This document shows positions 8,541-60,747 of a DNA stretch of 64,000 nt, one piece after another. Below the pieces are notes generated by a model. It made no database searches. It worked only from the letters and a program-made list of their open reading frames with translations, and was not told the origin of the DNA. Source of the DNA: Octopus vulgaris (lineage: Eukaryota); contig OX597814.1 in the NCBI GenBank assembly GCA_951406725.2, forward strand, positions 203,174,001-203,238,000. Reading direction: 5' to 3'. How positions within the stretch are numbered: the first letter of the stretch is position 1; every line of letters starts with the position of its first letter. The position numbers were made by a program, and so were the translations under genes.

Positions 8541-8574
<34 letters not shown>

Positions 8575-8631
8575 GGAGATGTACTTGCATAGCAAGTGAC
8601 CTGATCTGAAATCGTGTGCTAAAACAAAAAC

Positions 8632-8895
8632 AATTGCAGTGTGGAAGGTGTTTATAAGACATTTAAAAACACACAAAAACCATTAGATTCACTTCAACAT
8701 TGAAATTTAATTTGTTAAAATACTTTTGTCACTTTGAAACCGTAACCTGTTCACTGACAAAATTCTGTGCTGCACAGAATTTTGTCAGTGAACAGGTCAC
8801 GGTTTCAAAGTGATGAAAGTATTTAAATGTTGAAGTGAATCTAATGGCTTTTGTGTGTTTTTAAATGGCTTATAAACACCTTCCACGCTGCAATT
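8632..8895. repeat. Foldback palindrome with 1-nt spacer (centre 8771), flanked by (TA)n
   Basis: Arms 8632-8770 and 8772-8895; ~15-nt deletion in right arm. Confidence 0.9.
8781..8824 (+). ncRNA. Variant hammerhead-like motif with G3:C8 core (decayed)
   Basis: UUUGUCA-GUGAACA-G-GUCAC gguuucaaa GUGAU-GAAA-GUAUUU; the 3' strand of stem I is deleted here but present in the inverted copy at 8711-8762(-). Confidence 0.45.
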
Positions 8896-9084
8896 ATATA
8901 TATATTCTCTTGAATTTATTTTCTTTTGCAGAATTCAAGCCAGTCACTTACAAAGTGACAAGACTTTCTTTGATGAAGTCATGACAGCACTTTGGGGTTT
9001 GTGTATATGCGAATTGCTTGGTGTTGGCATATATGTATTTGTGTGTGTGAGGATGAACTTGCTGTCGTACATACATGTGTGAGC

Positions 9085-16910: not shown

Positions 16911-17816
16911 TATGCAAAAAAAACAAAAAAAAACTCAGAAAACAGGAAGGTCATGGTTGGATTATAGGTCTGTCCAATAAAACTGACCTGGGGCTAAACA
17001 CCAACTGATCAACAAATTGCCATAACTCCACCACCGCTACCACTACCACTCATGTAAATCTAGATGGATACATGTAAAATAGCAACAGCAACAACAACAA
17101 CAAAACTGTTTGCGTTTTTGTTTAAATATCTGTAGATATTATCTGGAGTGCTTGCTAGGTTCAAATGGGAAATGAAAGGAAGTAGATCTAATATATGTAT
17201 AAAGTCAATGATTTACATCACATCCATTTAGAATGTTCTACATATAAACACATTCTGTTGTGCTGGGATTCACGCACCAGTAAGATTCAAACCAATATTG
17301 TAAGAAAGATGGGATTAGAAAGTATAATCAAGATATCTTTAATTCATGCGCCATCTCTCTTAAACATTTTATTTCCTTTCCCATTTTAGCAATATACCAA
17401 TTTTATTTATTTATTTTTTTTAAGCAGCTTCAAAAATATGGGAAAATTGTAGAATATGAAATACGTAATCAGAAATTCATATAATTGTTACAGATTCTTC
17501 GATGATTTATTCATGAGAAATTTCTCTATAGTTTTCTGATATTTCCATATCTGAATAGAAACACTCCATTTTGAAAATATCCCCTCAAACTTGACAATTT
17601 TAACTTTATTTCATTTTTAATATAGGATTATTCAGATGACAAACATAAAAAAAAAGAGAATCGTGTACGACTAAATCTGGCTTATCGTTCAATTTTCAGT
17701 TATCTCTGTGGTGGGGGTAGGAGCAGGGTGGATCTGTTGTTGTTGTTTTTCACTTGGAAACAAAATTCTGTTTTAGTTGTGGTGTTTTATTTTGGTGTTT
17801 GTTTTCTCTTTGCCAG

Positions 17817-18968
17817 GCACATCAACTGGAAGTCCAAGATATTGATGCCGGAGAAAATGGTACTGTAACTCTAAGTCTCAATGGAGCAACTCAGTTTCGT
17901 CTTCGCAAAGTCGAAAACTCTAGCTATGTTGTTTATGTAAAAGCCAATTGGTCCCTTGACCGTGAATGGCGCAGTAATTACAATGTGAGCATCACTGCTC
18001 GTGATGGGGGTGACCCACCAAGGTCATCTGTCATATATTTATTCATTAAAGTTTTAGATGTTAATGATCACAGTCCACAGTTTCAGTATACTTCATATAA
18101 TATGACAGCCACTGAAAACTCCCCCCTTGGTAAAGTTATTGGCTATGTTCATGCTGATGATGAAGACTCCGAGGTCAATGGAGAAATTGAATATTCTATT
18201 GTGAGTGGATCAATGGAGATGTTTGAAATTGGTGAGAAAAATGGCAGTATATATATCAGCCAACCTAAACTGGATCGAGAGAAGAAAGACATTTATCACA
18301 TCACTGTGCGTGCACAAGATAAAGGTTTTCCTCGAAAGCAGGCACATACAGTTGTGAACGTATATGTTGAAGATGTCAATGATAATGCACCAGAGTTTTC
18401 GCAACAGGCCTACACAGTTACTGTTCCTGAAAACACACCAGTTGGAGACATTATTTTCCAGGTGGATGCACGTGACAGGGATTTAGGAGCTGGCGGTCAG
18501 GTCTCTTTCTTTTTGGAGCCTCGTTCCAAATTTTTCTACATAGACAAGAACAATGGTAGTATCTACTTGAACAAATCTCTTGACTATGAAACGACAAGGA
18601 AACATTTTACTTTCAACATTCTTTCTCACGATCATGGCACCCCGAGCATCAGTTCAATTGCTCCCATTGAAATAAAAGTCACTGATGTAAATGATGAAGT
18701 TCCTGAATTCTCTCAGCCGTTGTATGTTAGCCAGATCACCAAAACTTCGCCAATAGGAAAAGCCATTACAGTCGTCCAAGCAAAAGATACAGATTCAGAG
18801 ATCATTTATTACTTGACACCGTCATCTTCTGAGTTCACCATTGACAAATCAGGTGTCATTGTCCAAACTGAGAACATTGATAAAACAATATTCTCACCAG
18901 GTACGCTGTATAAGGAATTTAATGTCGTGGCTACTGACTCAATCCACACCGCCAATACATCTGTTCAG
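17817..18968 (+). CDS. Cadherin exon 4 (AHQLEVQDIDAGENG...ANTSVQ), nearly 4 EC repeats
   Basis: ttgccAG / GTAGGT; 1152 nt; LDRE, LDYE, DVNDHSP, DVNDNAP, DVNDEVP motifs. Confidence 0.96.
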
Positions 18969-19078
18969 GTAGGTCATTATTTAACCCTTTTTGTTACCAC
19001 ATCTCCATTGAAATACACTGCCTCTGTTTCAATTAATTTTTGAAATAATGAAGAATTTAGTAAAATAACTTTGTCGTT

Positions 19079-32880: not shown

Positions 32881-33058
32881 ATTGTTGTGAACATCACTGA
32901 TGCCAATGATAATGCGCCCAGATGCACTTTCCCGCTGTATAAATTTACGCATGTAGAAGATTCCTTTTTGGGTTCCATTGTTGGAAGAATTCATGCCACA
33001 GATGAAGACAGTGGGAAAAATGCCAGATTGAAATTCAGCATCATCGGAGGCAATGTTG
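32881..33058 (+). CDS. Cadherin exon 7 (IVVNITDANDNAP...DEDSGKN...GGNV)
   Basis: ctgcAG / GTAAGT; 178 nt, phase 0/1. Confidence 0.93.
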
Positions 33059-38066: not shown

Positions 38067-38947
38067 CTAGCAGAGATACCCGACGTTGCTCGGAATAAAA
38101 ATCGTATAGTTTGTATATACAAAATTTTGTGCTGCATCTGAGAAAGTAACAGTTAGTTCATGTTATATATGTGTTTACGTATGTGTATATATATGTGTAA
38201 ATGCGTATACATGCATATATGTGTGTAGACGTGTCTGTATGTGTGTATATGTGTTGAGCACATGATCTCAGATTAAGACACTTGCTATACAAATACATCT
38301 CTGTAAATAGAAAAATTATCTCTATGAAATGTCATTGTTTTAATCAAAATGAAAATAAAATTTCGTATTGACATTGACCAGCCCTCACATACATATAGTG
38401 TGTTTAATAACATAACTTACAGAGAAAGACACAGACAGGTGGTGAGCTGGCAGAAATGATAGCATGCCGGGCAAAATGCTTAGCGGTATTTCGTCTGCCA
38501 CTACATTCTGAGTTCAAATTCCGCCAAGGTCAACTTTGTCTTTCATCTTTTTGAGGTCGATTAAATAAGTACCAGTTACGCACTGGGGTCGATATAATTG
38601 ACTTAATCCATTTGTCTGTCATTGTTTGTCCTCTCTGTGTATAGACCCTTGTGGGCAGTAAAGAAATAATACATTCACAGACAGATACACAGTCATACAC
38701 AAAATATGATGTCGTCATCGTCAGAATTAAAAATAGAAATATAAAAGTGAAATGATATATCACATTACAATATAGATGTTATTTTTTCACTTTTATTCTT
38801 TGAGTTTTGACACATAATATGGAACCAGTGCCAATATTGCATTGTTTTAATTCAAAAACCTTACATGTTGACACTCACAGGGTCTGATAGTATTACCATG
38901 TAAAATTTGATTTGATTTGGTTGAAACGTTTGTGATATAAATATAGA
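38067..38947 (-). mobile_element. Helitron-like element with nested SINE (5' boundary uncertain)
   Basis: Minus-strand 3' end CCGAGCAACGTCGGGTATCTCTGCTAG|T (hairpin + CTAG); candidate TCTATAT start near 38947. Confidence 0.55.
38438..38668 (+). mobile_element. tRNA-headed SINE family C (Nin/Deu-like core, inferred)
   Basis: GAGCTGGCAGAA...GAGTTCAAATTCC...GTCAACTTTGTCTTTCATC...AATAAGTACCAG; copies at ~35553-35970(-), ~44545-44930(-), ~59813-60015(+), ~27640-27845(+). Confidence 0.7.
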
Positions 38948-40833: not shown

Positions 40834-41164
40834 CATACATATACATAAATCCAAAATTAAAAACAAAAACAACAAAAGTCAATTGAACATGCACAGTGAA
40901 TATATTAGATTGACGATCAGTGAAAGTTTTAAATGGAAAAATAGGAGTGGCATGGTTGATGCCATCCCCCTGTGCCAGTGACACATAAAAAAAGCACCCA
41001 CTACACTCTTGGAGTGGTTGGCATTAGGAAGGGCATCCAGCTGTAGAAACTCTGCCACAACAGACTGGAGCCTGGTGCAGCCTCCAAGCTTCCCAGACCC
41101 CAGTTGAACCGTCCAACCCATGCCAGCATGGAGTATGGACATTAAACGATGATGATGATATATT

Positions 41165-41222
<58 letters not shown>

Positions 41223-41300
41223 GATGACTATGGTATCTAAGTTAAGGCACCAGAATTTAGTATGGTATTATCCATACAATTTCAAAAATAAGGTGATTAA

Positions 41301-42266: not shown

Positions 42267-42597
42267 CATACATATACATAAATCCAAAATTAAAAACAAA
42301 AACAACAAAAGTCAATTGAACATGCACAGTGAATATATTAGATTGACGATCAGTGAAAGTTTTAAATGGAAAAATAGGAGTGGCATGGTTGATGCCATCC
42401 CCCTGTGCCAGTGACACATAAAAAAAGCACCCACTACACTCTTGGAGTGGTTGGCATTAGGAAGGGCATCCAGCTGTAGAAACTCTGCCACAACAGACTG
42501 GAGCCTGGTGCAGCCTCCAAGCTTCCCAGACCCCAGTTGAACCGTCCAACCCATGCCAGCATGGAGTATGGACATTAAACGATGATGATGATATATT

Positions 42598-42655
<58 letters not shown>

Positions 42656-43015
42656 GATGACTATGGTATCTAAGTTAAGGCACCAGAATTTAGTATGGTA
42701 TTATCCATACAATTTCAAAGTAAGGTGATTAAAATCAAAATAAGCAACAAGGATATCCAGAGGTAATGCAGTACGATTATGTCATGCAACTCTATTTATT
42801 TGAACAAAGCAATCATTACATCAATTTAAAATGCAGAGCAATCTTCAGCTGCACAAAGACATAGAATTTAATTAAAGTAGAACAGATGGACACATTAGTA
42901 TAATTATACGTAAAATCTCCAAGAAAATTATACTTAAAATCTCTTCTTGGAGATTTTAGGTATAATTATACTAATGTGTCCGTCTGTTCTAATTTAATTA
43001 AATTCTATGTCTTTG

Positions 43016-53996: not shown

Positions 53997-54512
53997 CGGG
54001 GTGGCCCAAAAGTGGGTTTACAGTTATTCAACTATCTCTTTCGCTTTCAAATATTAACAGCTTAGATCTTAATTATAAAAACATGACAGTCCCATAAAGG
54101 GAATTACACCACCGCTGTTTAGCCCTAAGAAGCATTGACGCTTCCTGTTGGCTTTGACACATTTCCTGTGTCCTTATATTTGCAAAGGGGAGGCAAGCAC
54201 CCCCACCAGCTAGGACTAGCAACCTGAAGACATGCATGTTTCTGGGTTTTGCCCATCATCAGTCCAGGGTATTAAGTCCTGCTAGTTGAGATACCTGCCA
54301 AACCTTCGCAAATGTATATATTTACAGCGAAATCTATTCACTGGTCACTGTAATTAGAAATATTTCTAATTACATTATTCTATGCTAATTTAGTTAATTT
54401 TGTCAAGTTCCCTTTTCAGTTTGTAAGATAAGAATTTAAATGTAATAAAATGTTTTAAAAGAAATTTAAAGTACGTACATGAAAACTGTAAACCTACTTT
54501 TGGGCCACCCTG
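53997..54512. mobile_element. Tc1/mariner-like MITE containing the hammerhead element
   Basis: 29-bp TIRs C(A/G)GGGTGGCCCAAAAGT(A/G)GGTTTACAGTT; TA at right flank (CA at left). Confidence 0.75.
54223..54268 (-). ncRNA. Type I hammerhead ribozyme, canonical core
   Basis: Minus strand: CCUGGA-CUGAUGA-UGGG caaaa CCCA-GAAA-C AUGCAU GUC-UUCAGG. Stems I and II pair; stem III is palindromic; GUC cleavage triplet; stem I extends further (AGGACU/AGUCCU). Confidence 0.85.
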
Positions 54513-57348: not shown

Positions 57349-58901
57349 TTAAAGACTTATCTGTATATTTCTTACTTTTTAAGTCAATTTTCTTATTTTC
57401 TTAAAATATTGTTGTTCTTTTTTTTTTTTTTTTGCCTTTGTGCCATAGTTCATCATCTTTGTGATATTTCAGTATAGATATGACTATTTAAAAAATACTA
57501 ATATTTCACTAAGTGTATCTTGCTTTTTAGAAAAGATACACTATATCTTTGCAAGTGATGAGGGGTGTTTAAGACTGTTGGCATCAAGGCTATTTTCCCA
57601 TAAAATATTACCTCTAAAATTCCCAGCATAAAACAACATTGAACCTGAAACTATGTGGTTGGGAACCAAGCTTCACAACCACTCAACCATGCCTGTGGCT
57701 ATATTATTATTATTGAGAGAGATGCCAGTAAGTACTCCAAGTGATGCTGGGGTACAAATATACAAAGTTCAATATACCCATCATGACTACCCATCTGATA
57801 AGGATTCACCAGGCACATGCATCTCAACCATATGTGTATGACATGGTGACTTCATATCAAATTAAGCAACACATGACCTTTCAGATGGGGCCCAGTTATA
57901 ATTTTCTTCAGTTTGAGTAGCCCATCTTGCTCAAAAGGTCCCTGAATAAGGGTTGTTTAAGGATGATGAATGGAACACCAATGTTTCCAGGGGTGAATTA
58001 TTCGAACCCCAAAGAATTCCTCTCAACACATGGCCATGATGCTCCTCTATTTCTGCTTGTGATCAGAGATGCACATATCATCAGACGCTAAGGGATATGC
58101 TCAACTGATTAAGGTCAAGCAACTGACAAACAAATCTGTGGTATTCATCAGCATCATCATCATCATTTAATGTGTGCTTTCCATGCTGGCATGGGTTGGA
58201 AGAGTTGACTAAGGACTGACAAGCCAGGAGGCTACGCCAGGCTCCAATGTGATCTATTGAGCAGAATATTTACTGTAGCCCATCTTTTTATACCAAGACA
58301 ATGTACATGATAACACTTCCAATCAGTTAAGATCAGACGCCATGAGAGTCACTGCCTGGTACTGCATCAGGGCATTTATTATTATTGTTAAGGTTGTGGC
58401 ACATATAAAGCACCATTTGAGTGTGGCCGTTGCCAGTACCGCCTGACTGGCCCTCGTGCCGGTGACACATAAAAGAACCCACTACACTCTCGGAGTGGTT
58501 GGCGTTAGGAAGGGCATTCAGCTGTAGAAACTTTGCCAGATCAGATTGCAGCCTGGTGCAGCTATCTGGTTCGCCAGTCAAATCGTCCAACCCATGCTAG
58601 CATGGAAAGTGGACGTTAAACGATGATGATGATGTTGTGAGCTGACAGAATTATTAGCAAATCAAGCAAAATGCTTAATATCATTTTGTCTGTCTTTATG
58701 TTCTGAGTTCAAATACAGCTGAGGTCAACTTTCGCTTTTATCCATTCTGGGTCAATAAAATAAATACCTGTGGAACACTGAGGATGATGATGTCAACTTA
58801 AATATTCCCCTAAAATTGATAGCCTTGTGCCAAAATTTGAAACCATTATTATGTAATATTATTGGTTACTAGCTGTCAGCAATATATTTTTGTTATTTCA
58901 G

Positions 58902-59122
58902 ATTATTTCAGCATTTCATCTTCTGGTTGGATCAGTGTGAAGAATAAAATAGACAGAGACACTTTGAATATTTCTCAAGCATCGCTGACTGTTTATGCTG
59001 TGGATAATGGACTTCCACCCAAAACCGGCTCTACACTGCTTCTTGTAAATATTAGTGATATTAATGACAATATTCCAGATTTTGTAGGATATAACATGAC
59101 ATACGTCATTGAAATACCTCAA
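58902..59122 (+). CDS. Cadherin exon 15 (YFSISSSGW...IDRD...DINDNIP...EIPQ)
   Basis: tttcAG / GTAAGT; 221 nt, phase 1/0. Confidence 0.93.
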
Positions 59123-60747
59123 GTAAGTTTGAGTTTTTCTTTCGATAACTCTTTATTGTGCAAACATCAGACCACAAAATATTTACTGCTTCTAGTACAG
59201 AGACAAGGATAGATTCTTTTAGTGGTGTTGGAGTGGAGATGTTGATTATATCAACTTTAATACTTTATTGGTGGGTTCAATTCCTGTGCAGGGCCACACA
59301 TTGTGCCCTTGAGCAATGTACTTCATTTCACAATCCTCCAGTCAATACGGCTAAAAATGAGCACAAGTCAACTGCTGAGTCAACCCCCCCTCCACCTCAC
59401 ACACACACACACACACATATCCTGGATATTCTGCTGGGTCAAAGGAAAGAAGGAGGCAAGAAGGTGTCTGTATCTACTTCTGACTAATTAGGCATCTAAA
59501 ACAGTTAATGAAAGCTTAGTACATGCTACCTTAGCGAAGTTGCAAGTGGCAGCTATGGACAACTTGTTTTTTTTTTTACTTTGTAGATGCATTATTTTTA
59601 TTGACTTCCAGAAGAAAAACAAACAAAATTGGCAACAGCAGGGTTTGAACTCAGAACATAAAGAGCCAGGACAAATATACATATGCCAAAAGCATTTTGT
59701 TGGACATTCCAACAATTCTGCCATATTTTCCTTTATCCCATTCTTTAATGGAAACTAATTAACTCTAATGAAAAACACTTCCTTTTTCATTAATTAATAT
59801 GGCATTTGTTTCAGGGTTGCAAGCTAGCAGAATCGTTAGCACACCGGGCGAATTACTTAGCAGCATTTCGCCTGCTGTTTCATTCTGAGTTCAAATTCCA
59901 CTGAGGTCAACTTTGCCTTTCATTCTTTCGGAGTCGATTAAATAAGTACCAGTTACGCACTGGGGGTCGATGTAATCGACTTAATTTTTTTGTCTGTCCT
60001 TCTTTGCATTAAAGAAATCAATATGGCATTTGTTTCTGTTGTTTTTTTTATAATATAACAAAATGGGTTTTTTTTGCACATAAAATTATAATGGACAGTT
60101 TTAACTCAACCCTTTAGCTTTTAAACCACTCATATACCAAGGCCAAATATTCAATGTGTTTTATGTTCAAACTGGCCAGATTCAGCCTCTCACACCTACA
60201 AATAAACCATCACATCAAAACCACAAGATAATGCAGGATTAATTGAAAACAATAAGTATTATATTTAAAAGAGTAATCTGAATGCTTAAAGGGTAAAATA
60301 TAACTATTTAAAACTGTTTTGTATGAAAGAACCAGAAGCAGTCTGGGGTAAGATGGTACCAAAACAGGTTTGCTCTTAATAGGAAAATACTCAAAGACAG
60401 CCAGCTGGCAAAATCATTAACACACTGGGTGAAATGCTTAGCAGCATTTTATTCATCTTTATGTTCTGGGTTCAAATTCTGCCGAGGTCAGCTTTGTCAT
60501 TCATCCTTACTGGGTCAATAAAATAAGCACCGGTTGAACACTGGGATCAATGTAATCGACTTACCCCTCCCCCAAAATTGCTGGCCTTGTGCCAAAATTT
60601 GAAACCAATATGAAAATACTCTGGAACCTACAATACGTGGTCAGCTACAATTTTAAATGTTCTCTTACAATATTTTTATTTTGCTTTTCTTTTGAAGCAA
60701 TATCAATGATTTTAGAAAGCCCTGATTGTACGTTTTATATTTTACAG

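What the first reader, a model, noticed from the sequence alone, without database searches (positions are those of the whole stretch)
8632..8895. Foldback element whose hammerhead core reads GUGAACA: a natural G3:C8 compensatory swap
Seen: both arms carry UUUGUCA-GUGAACA-G-GUCAC-loop-GUGA(C/U)-GAAA-GUAUUU-U(A)ACAAA. Relative to CUGANGA only positions 3 and 8 differ, and they remain complementary. Each arm has one separate lesion (right: 3' stem I deleted; left: G12 to A, consistent with CpG decay). Known: C3 and G8 form a Watson-Crick pair in the active hammerhead, and double swaps partly rescue activity. Inference: a whole element family uses a variant core that standard CUGANGA searches miss.
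Basis: partly seen in the sequence, partly recalled or inferred. Interest (0 to 1): 0.8.

Follow-up and report, generated by a model that had tools for sequence, protein, structure and literature searches.

The report
Octopus retrotransposon with swapped-core hammerhead ribozyme
This is a decayed, back-to-back double copy of the front end of an octopus jumping gene whose thousands of copies carry a hammerhead self-cutting RNA motif with one core base pair flipped (G3:C8 for the usual C3:G8); the intact version would likely still cut RNA slowly, which is untested.

Summary
Observation confirmed and extended. Window 8572-8895 is a foldback insertion (centre 8771) of the 5' pLTR module of a Neptune-like Penelope retrotransposon (PLE), in (TA)n, with the PLE one-sided 'tail'. 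The swap is family-wide: G3:C8 in 2,981 of 3,362 older-subfamily matches and in 98 of 100 listed of 1,898 young-subfamily matches. The young subfamily is tied to ~99%-identical RT/GIY-YIG ORFs, changed loop II, and kept both stems and the core. The sister PLE family in the same genome (tree 100/100) has C3:G8. Four metagenome relatives show C3:G8 twice and U3:A8 twice, so the pair covaries three ways and G3:C8 looks derived. Papers I could read report natural U3:A8 and only engineered G3:C8 (partial rescue); four key papers were not available. Cleavage is unshown: copies are not enriched at the cut site, and a G3.G8 mismatch is over-represented. This scan earlier noted G3-C8-like PLE motifs in two other genomes (unchecked). 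New variant of a known kind.

The parts
8572..8895 (.). Whole insertion: two head-to-head copies of the pLTR module of a Neptune-like Penelope element (family A)
   Evidence: linked to the RT/GIY-YIG ORF
8572..8770 (-). Left arm, long form (with tail)
   Evidence: 90-93% identical to 39 other scored genome copies
8572..8631 (-). PLE 'tail', ~60 nt, on one arm only; it is early ORF sequence (about +30 to +90)
   Evidence: tail concept from PMC11167929 and PMC8557442
8660..8662 (-). Start codon of the element ORF in the left arm
   Evidence: same ATG opens the ORF in L130/L193
8711..8761 (-). Left hammerhead remnant: stem I 5' strand 8761-8755, core G3-A9 8754-8748 (G3 8754, C8 8749), extra G 8747, stem II 8746-8728, G12A at 8727, stem III half 8724-8719, H17 8718, stem I 3' strand 8717-8711
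   Evidence: sequence; family columns
8771..8771 (.). Centre of the foldback
8772..8895 (+). Right arm, short form (no tail), ending about 30 nt into the ORF (ATG at 8865)
8781..8824 (+). Right hammerhead remnant: stem I 5' strand 8781-8787, core 8788-8794 (G3 8788, C8 8793), extra G 8795, stem II 8796-8814 (C11.1U at 8814), GAAA 8815-8818, H17 8824; 15-nt deletion right after, between short T-rich microhomologies
8542..8571 (.). (TA)n target, left flank
8896..8905 (.). (AT)5 target, right flank

Best explanation
The locus is a decayed inverted double insertion of the 5' module of an octopus Neptune-like Penelope retrotransposon whose family carries a minimal type I hammerhead motif with a fixed G3:C8 core pair, likely derived from C3:G8, and predicted to cleave slowly, as a dimer or with help from the element's protein. 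Shown: element anatomy (pLTR with hammerhead, cut site 56 nt upstream of the AUG, RT-CxxC-GIY-YIG ORF, long CA-rich 3' region, second pLTR); the family-wide G3:C8; three Watson-Crick states of the 3:8 pair across the clade. Inferred: transcription starts about 58 nt upstream of the cut site; reverse transcription starts at two sites early in the ORF, which gives tailed and tailless arms that join head-to-head in (TA)n. In the intact element two motifs would pair through the AAUAUU palindrome, and G3:C8 would keep the stacked pair that positions the 2'-OH of residue 8, giving partial activity. Cleavage would trim or uncap a minority of transcripts rather than make the RT template. This window copy would not cleave: G12 is lost on the left, stem I on the right, and any transcript across it folds into one long hairpin.
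For: Counts: 3,203 matches with G3, 222 of them not C8, against 159 without G3, so G3:C8 in 2,981 of 3,362; young subfamily 1,898 matches, 98 of 100 listed G3:C8. Parent: 26 of 30 endonuclease loci have the pLTR core downstream on the same strand, 25 of them G3:C8; 17 of 29 others are at least 99% identical to L107 over 360 nt; open frame of 1,025 aa with Pfam GIY-YIG 25.4 bits over cut-off 22.6; pLTR-ORF-pLTR unit of 4,261 nt in L193. Subfamily changes fall in loop II, in the flank, or give a U-G wobble in stem I (16 of 63 copies). Sister family B has C3:G8 (A+B clade 100/100); metagenome relatives L179 and L183 have C3:G8, L180 and (by eye) L181 have U3:A8. Fold: stems I and II are the MFE of L130 (-15.4 kcal/mol); the dimer MFE (-32.7) does not form the palindromic stem III. 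PLE hallmarks: inverted upstream partner in 20 of 30 position-ordered copies; in 52 of 55 foldback loci exactly one arm has the tail, never both. Literature: C3G/G8C partly restores cleavage in a PLE hammerhead, which is protein-assisted (PMC11167929); the extra nucleotide between 9 and 10.1 and the palindrome are PLE min-HHR hallmarks (PMC4209133). Contigs of three other coded organisms read the same core.
Against: No cleavage was measured. Copies do not pile up at the predicted cut site: by eye about 48 of 100 listed (103 in all) are junctions there, against about 17 of 100 listed (467 in all, so about 79) at a control site 4 nt downstream. Among non-C8 copies, G8 (unpaired G3.G8) is over-represented: by eye about 37 G, 10 A, 53 T of 100 listed, and G3.G8 occurs in long copies (L098, L136, L142), so the pair may not be needed for spread; 19 G8 copies had no private linked variant except one CpG-like site. 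Family B and L180 have C at position 9, so this clade tolerates other core departures, which fits relaxed catalysis too. The thermodynamic dimer fold does not produce the active junction. Only 4 of 14 metagenome loci gave a motif, one of them by eye only. PAc hammerhead mutants did not affect insertion in vitro.
Confidence: 0.7

Rival explanations
1. The motif is a hammerhead descendant kept for its fold (protein binding or RNP assembly at the 5' end of the element RNA) but with little or no catalysis; G3:C8 preserves shape, not chemistry.
For: No excess of copies starting at the cut site. Most short copies keep the whole motif, and 18 of 76 non-extended 5' junctions end in an untemplated-looking G before AGAUG, as from capped, uncleaved RNA. 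A9C in family B and L180. PLE min-HHRs cleave weakly in vitro (PMC4209133) and HHR mutants do not block PAc insertion.
Against: G5, A6, G12, A13, A14, A15.1-U16.1 and a non-G at position 17, the residues needed for chemistry, are all kept in family A across subfamilies and in the relatives. The engineered swap is partly active.
Confidence: 0.2
2. The swap is an unselected accident: two substitutions in a master copy that happen to be complementary, carried along by a successful element to which the ribozyme no longer matters.
For: All copies descend from few masters, so the counts are not independent events. A second change is complementary by chance about one time in three. G3.G8 copies are in excess.
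Against: All six families with a motif have a Watson-Crick 3:8 pair, in three different states. Loop II turned over between family A subfamilies while stems and core did not.
Confidence: 0.08
3. C3G was favoured because it makes an initiator-like TCAGT in the pLTR promoter (consensus recalled, not from a call), and G8C followed as compensation.
For: G3 does create TCAGT (sequence).
Against: No pile-up of 5' ends or extra G at that A: about 5 of 100 listed (136 in all) junctions with G, by eye. The apparent start lies about 22 nt further upstream.
Confidence: 0.02
4. A MITE or DNA foldback element whose likeness to a hammerhead is chance.
For: The locus looks like a long inverted repeat. Rfam finds nothing.
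Against: Arms are unequal and vary between loci; 10 of 30 position-ordered copies have no partner; the unit is the pLTR of an RT/GIY-YIG element; 0 of 20,000 shuffles match as well.
Confidence: 0.01

Closest known systems
Minimal type I hammerheads (min-HHR) of Penelope-like elements (Cervera & de la Pena 2014, PMC4209133)
   Same: Sits in the pLTR; extra nucleotide between 9 and 10.1; G10.1-C11.1; small palindromic stem III implying a dimer; many dispersed or opposite-strand copies; the 3:8 pair can covary (U3-A8 in Schistosoma Cercyon).
   Different: 3:8 pair is G-C. In their supplementary alignment none of the 4 word-start GUGA strings is a core. Stem I is longer (7 bp).
Poseidon element PAc of Anolis and its hammerhead (Frangieh et al. 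2024, PMC11167929)
   Same: Hammerhead next to the ORF start; tail equals early ORF sequence between two RT start sites; AT-rich targets; C3G/G8C double mutant partly active; no ends seen at the cut site.
   Different: PAc is C3:G8 and the swap was engineered; here it is natural and fixed. The cut lies 56 nt before the AUG, not 26 nt after it; the tail is ~60 nt; the ORF has a Neptune-type CxxC linker.
Natural core variants of hammerheads (Perreault et al. 2011, PMC3088659)
   Same: Compensatory covariation of the 3:8 pair in nature.
   Different: The passage read reports only U3-A8, not G3-C8.
Neptune-clade PLEs (Craig et al. 2021, PMC8557442)
   Same: RT then CX(2-5)CxxC linker then GIY-YIG; microsatellite targeting; inverted 5' copies; tail at one end.
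   Different: Variant core that their CUGANGA string descriptor would miss; clade placement not tested against named Neptune references.

Membership tests
Minimal type I hammerhead of PLEs | Core boxes: U4 G5 A6 N7 and A9; G12 A13 A14 A15.1 | tested here: met
   Family majority, 51-63 of 63 copies per column; not met in the left window arm (G12A)
Minimal type I hammerhead of PLEs | Literal C3 and G8 (CUGANGA) | tested here: not met
   G3 and C8. Hence filed as a variant, not a canonical member
Minimal type I hammerhead of PLEs | Watson-Crick pair between 3 and 8 | tested here: met
   G3:C8 in 2,981 of 3,362; C-G and U-A in relatives
Minimal type I hammerhead of PLEs | Stems I and II in the right register, with G10.1-C11.1 | tested here: met
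   7-bp and 5-bp stems are the MFE of L130; 0 of 20,000 shuffles as good; not met in the right window arm (stem I strand deleted)
Minimal type I hammerhead of PLEs | Extra nucleotide between 9 and 10.1; palindromic 15.1-16.1 segment; NUH site | tested here: met
   Extra G, AAUAUU, UUU site
Minimal type I hammerhead of PLEs | Dimer folds into the active junction | tested here: inconclusive
   The cofold MFE swaps stems I and II between strands and does not pair the palindromes
Minimal type I hammerhead of PLEs | Self-cleavage at position 17 | not testable with these tools
   Indirect test (copy ends at the cut site) showed no excess
Penelope-like element, EN+ | Single ORF with RT followed by GIY-YIG endonuclease | tested here: met
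   YVDD and GIY-YIG in a 1,025-aa frame; Pfam PF01541 above cut-off; Pfam RVT_1 not hit, but homologs are named RT-domain proteins
Penelope-like element, EN+ | pLTR-ORF-pLTR, inverted 5' copies, one-sided tail, AT-rich targets | tested here: met
   L193
Penelope-like element, EN+ | Retained spliceosomal intron near the 5' end | tested here: inconclusive
   12 of 88 junctions continue into a branch-point/pyrimidine/AG-like stretch, but no spliced upstream exon is shared among copies
Neptune clade | CX(2-5)CxxC linker between RT and EN | tested here: met
   C-x3-C-x2-C seen in the L123-L127 translations; feature per PMC8557442
Neptune clade | Phylogenetic placement with named Neptune elements | not tested
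   The tree holds no named reference PLEs
Rfam hammerhead families | Score at the gathering threshold | tested here: not met
   0 hits in the window; an intact family copy was not scanned

The most novel reading that the evidence does not exclude
A recently active octopus retrotransposon runs on a natural G3:C8 hammerhead, the state known so far only as a laboratory rescue mutant, and it cleaves in vivo. PLE hammerheads then sample C-G, U-A and G-C at the catalytic 3:8 pair, and a hidden class of G3:C8 ribozymes, thousands of copies per genome, has been missed across eukaryotes by CUGANGA searches.
Probability: 0.45. Interest if true: 0.72.

Novelty: new variant of a known kind. Interest (0 to 1): 0.56.

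Why it matters
Residue 8 supplies the general acid of the hammerhead (recalled; G8C drops the rate 10^5-fold and C3G partly rescues it, PMC8495972). A natural fixed swap needs two steps through mismatched states, and here it sits in a young, high-copy autonomous element beside a C3:G8 sister family in the same genome. That is a ready natural comparison for the open question of whether PLE hammerheads must cleave at all. It also means ribozyme censuses and PLE annotation built on CUGANGA undercount: at least ~4,800 matches in this genome alone. The window copy itself is an ordinary dead insertion.

Tried and rejected
Rfam scan of the window: nothing. First idea of a non-autonomous SINE-like family: dropped once the same unit was found as the pLTR of an RT-EN ORF. 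Idea that the motif is coding sequence in the upstream AUG frame: rejected, since subfamilies differ by 1-nt and 1-nt loop indels there and the ORF starts 56 nt past the cut site. Intron reading of the upstream CTAAC/pyrimidine/AG stretch: unresolved; bases upstream of the extra G differ among copies, which fits a cap-derived G better than a shared exon. Cut-site enrichment test: negative, by-eye counts of the first 100 rows. Initiator idea: negative. G3.G8 as a distinct subfamily: no linked markers in 19 copies. The strict descriptor with A9 found nothing in 30 family B loci; relaxing position 9 found the motif. 10 of 14 metagenome loci gave no motif; several are fragments without the 3' region. 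Sequence-only MAFFT put L179 out of register, so the 3:8 states rest on the structure descriptor. Expression: no RNA holder listed on record; run X4 is only guessed to be RNA and is contigs, so it says nothing on starts, cut ends or strand. Sequence look-up in earlier findings: nothing. Papers not held, so unseen: Lunse et al. 2017 (PMC5785218), Przybilski & Hammann 2007 (PMC1986816), Hammann et al. 2012 (PMC3334697), Martick & Scott 2006 (PMC4447102); supplement file 1 of PMC4209133 was not searchable.

Full report
Observation. The window lies at G000:C1:203174001-203238000 of a 2.8-Gb genome. A protein that its source names Octopus vulgaris matches G000 at 100% over 123 aa, so I call the host an octopus. 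The finding is a foldback centred on 8771, with 26 perfect pairs and arms that align over 139 positions. Against the family majority the left arm has G12A, a broken stem I pair and a C-to-T in stem II; the right arm has C11.1U and a 15-nt deletion of the stem I 3' strand; both share changes in the palindrome and stem II. The motifs are on opposite strands, so a transcript across the locus folds into one hairpin (-178.6 kcal/mol). This copy is inferred dead.

Family. A DNA search gave 2,592 candidates, 40 scored. Whole-genome pattern counts for the older loop: 3,203 with G3, of which 222 lack C8, and 159 without G3, so G3:C8 in 2,981 of 3,362. None of the 100 listed non-G3 rows had CUGANGA. A separate young subfamily with another loop II gives 1,898 matches, 98 of 100 listed G3:C8. 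These copies come from few masters, so they show fixation, not thousands of independent events. An intact copy meets a minimal-hammerhead descriptor; 8 of 20,000 shuffles met it loosely and none as well.

Parent element. Two loci placed an inverted RT/GIY-YIG fragment next to the motif. A search with that endonuclease piece found a young family (4,819 candidates, 150 scored). In 26 of 30 fetched loci the pLTR core follows about 1 kb downstream on the same strand, 25 with G3:C8 and one with G3.G8; of the other four, one is the query locus, one lacks the 5' part and two show none within the flank. Seventeen of 29 loci are at least 99% identical to L107 over 360 nt. L124 holds a 1,025-aa open frame with YVDD, a C-x3-C-x2-C linker and a Pfam GIY-YIG hit above cut-off. 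In L130 and L193 the pLTR runs on into the ORF: the predicted cut lies 56 nt before the AUG, and L193 is a 4,261-nt pLTR-ORF-pLTR unit with a stop and a frameshift. The 'tail' is thus early ORF sequence, as shown for PAc (PMC11167929). An inverted partner lies upstream in 20 of 30 position-ordered copies (some of these loci are near-duplicates), and in 52 of 55 foldback loci exactly one arm has the tail, matching the PLE structure described in PMC8557442. Of 88 distinct 5' junctions, 12 continue into the upstream element sequence; of the other 76, 18 end in G-AG before AUGCAG where the template has C/U-AG. I infer a cap-derived G and a start at that A.

Polarity and covariation. A second young PLE family in G000 (frames to ~1,311 aa) has the motif at the same place with C3:G8 and C at position 9. 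Of 14 metagenome loci encoding relatives, three meet the descriptor: L179 and L183 with C3:G8, L180 with U3:A8; L181 shows U3:A8 by eye with a 3-bp stem II; ten gave nothing. All keep the extra G and a palindromic or near-palindromic stem III. In an 18-row tree, families A and B are sisters at 100/100; L183 is a long, unsure branch. With C3:G8 in the sister and outside, G3:C8 is most simply derived on the family A branch. Contigs of coded organisms B, C and D show no listed variant of 5% or more at positions 3 or 8 (11 rows not shown) and loose ends with the same core; these may be very close relatives.

Mechanism. The best reading is a real but probably slow hammerhead. Every other catalytic residue is kept while loop II turned over, and the one common stem I variant is a U-G wobble. 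In a PLE hammerhead the engineered double swap partly restores cleavage, which needs the element's protein. Against a required role: copies do not pile up at the cut site (by eye ~49 of 103 against ~79 of 467 at a control site), most short copies look like copies of capped, uncut RNA, G3.G8 is in excess (by eye 37 G, 10 A, 53 T of 100) without linked markers, relatives tolerate A9C, and the dimer MFE does not form the junction. I put hammerhead homology with a fixed swap at about 0.95 and measurable cleavage at about 0.6-0.7.

Literature. Seen: PMC4209133, parts 1-2 of 4 of the text and searches of supplement file 2 (file 1 not searchable); PMC11167929, parts 1-2 of 4 and passages; passages only of PMC8557442, PMC3088659, PMC3884650, PMC8495972, PMC6765202 and bioRxiv 10.64898/2026.07.22.740005. 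Natural U3-A8 is reported. G3-C8 appeared only as an engineered variant. Searches listed no natural G3:C8 and no octopus PLE hammerhead. Lunse 2017, Hammann 2012, Przybilski & Hammann 2007 and Martick & Scott 2006 were not held, and the first two could hold a prior case. Two earlier notes of this scan describe G3-C8-like motifs behind PLE RTs in other genomes; they are unchecked and not counted as support.

Verdict. It is a new variant of a known kind: a PLE minimal hammerhead with a natural G3:C8 pair, in a young autonomous element, with a canonical sister for comparison. Activity is untested. Interest 0.56.

Noticed in passing
window 54262-54215 (- strand), element about 54080-54350: A second, unrelated repeat with a canonical C3:G8 type I hammerhead (extra U after A9, long palindromic stem III, C17); 1,444 candidates genome-wide, some with inverted or tandem partners, so likely the pLTR of another PLE family. 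Rfam misses it.
   Followed up: partly
L148, L155, L169, L192 (family B); L180: Hammerheads with C at position 9 (A9C) in a very young PLE family with ~1,311-aa frames in tandem arrays, and in a metagenome relative that also has U3:A8.
   Followed up: partly
window 17721-19040, 58841-59209 (+); also near 32887 and 60556: Cadherin-repeat coding stretches (Pfam Cadherin), likely part of an octopus protocadherin cluster (cluster identity recalled).
   Followed up: partly
window 8912-9000 (+): Pyrimidine-rich AG at about 8931, 36 nt past the foldback, followed by a short open stretch; could be an exon, which would put a ~130-bp RNA hairpin (possible A-to-I editing substrate) beside a splice site. 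Not tested.
   Followed up: no
window 38244-38305 (+): Tail-only remnant of the same PLE family, 81% identical.
   Followed up: no
5' junctions of family A copies: Extra G before AGAUG in 18 of 76 junctions, suggesting that this PLE's RT copies the cap and marking the transcription start; the same site also looks like a 3' splice site.
   Followed up: partly
L143 (G000:C28:4994870-4997939): At least seven head-to-tail copies of the tailless pLTR module separated by short (TA)n, a natural array in which neighbouring hammerheads could pair as dimers.
   Followed up: no
L065, L066, L077, L078, L080, L088: Near-identical foldback loci with the same flanks within C1:4-33 Mb, i.e. copies spread inside a larger duplicated unit.
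   Followed up: no
window 40882-41241 and 42315-42674: Two stretches with identical translations, suggesting a ~1.4-kb local duplication.
   Followed up: no
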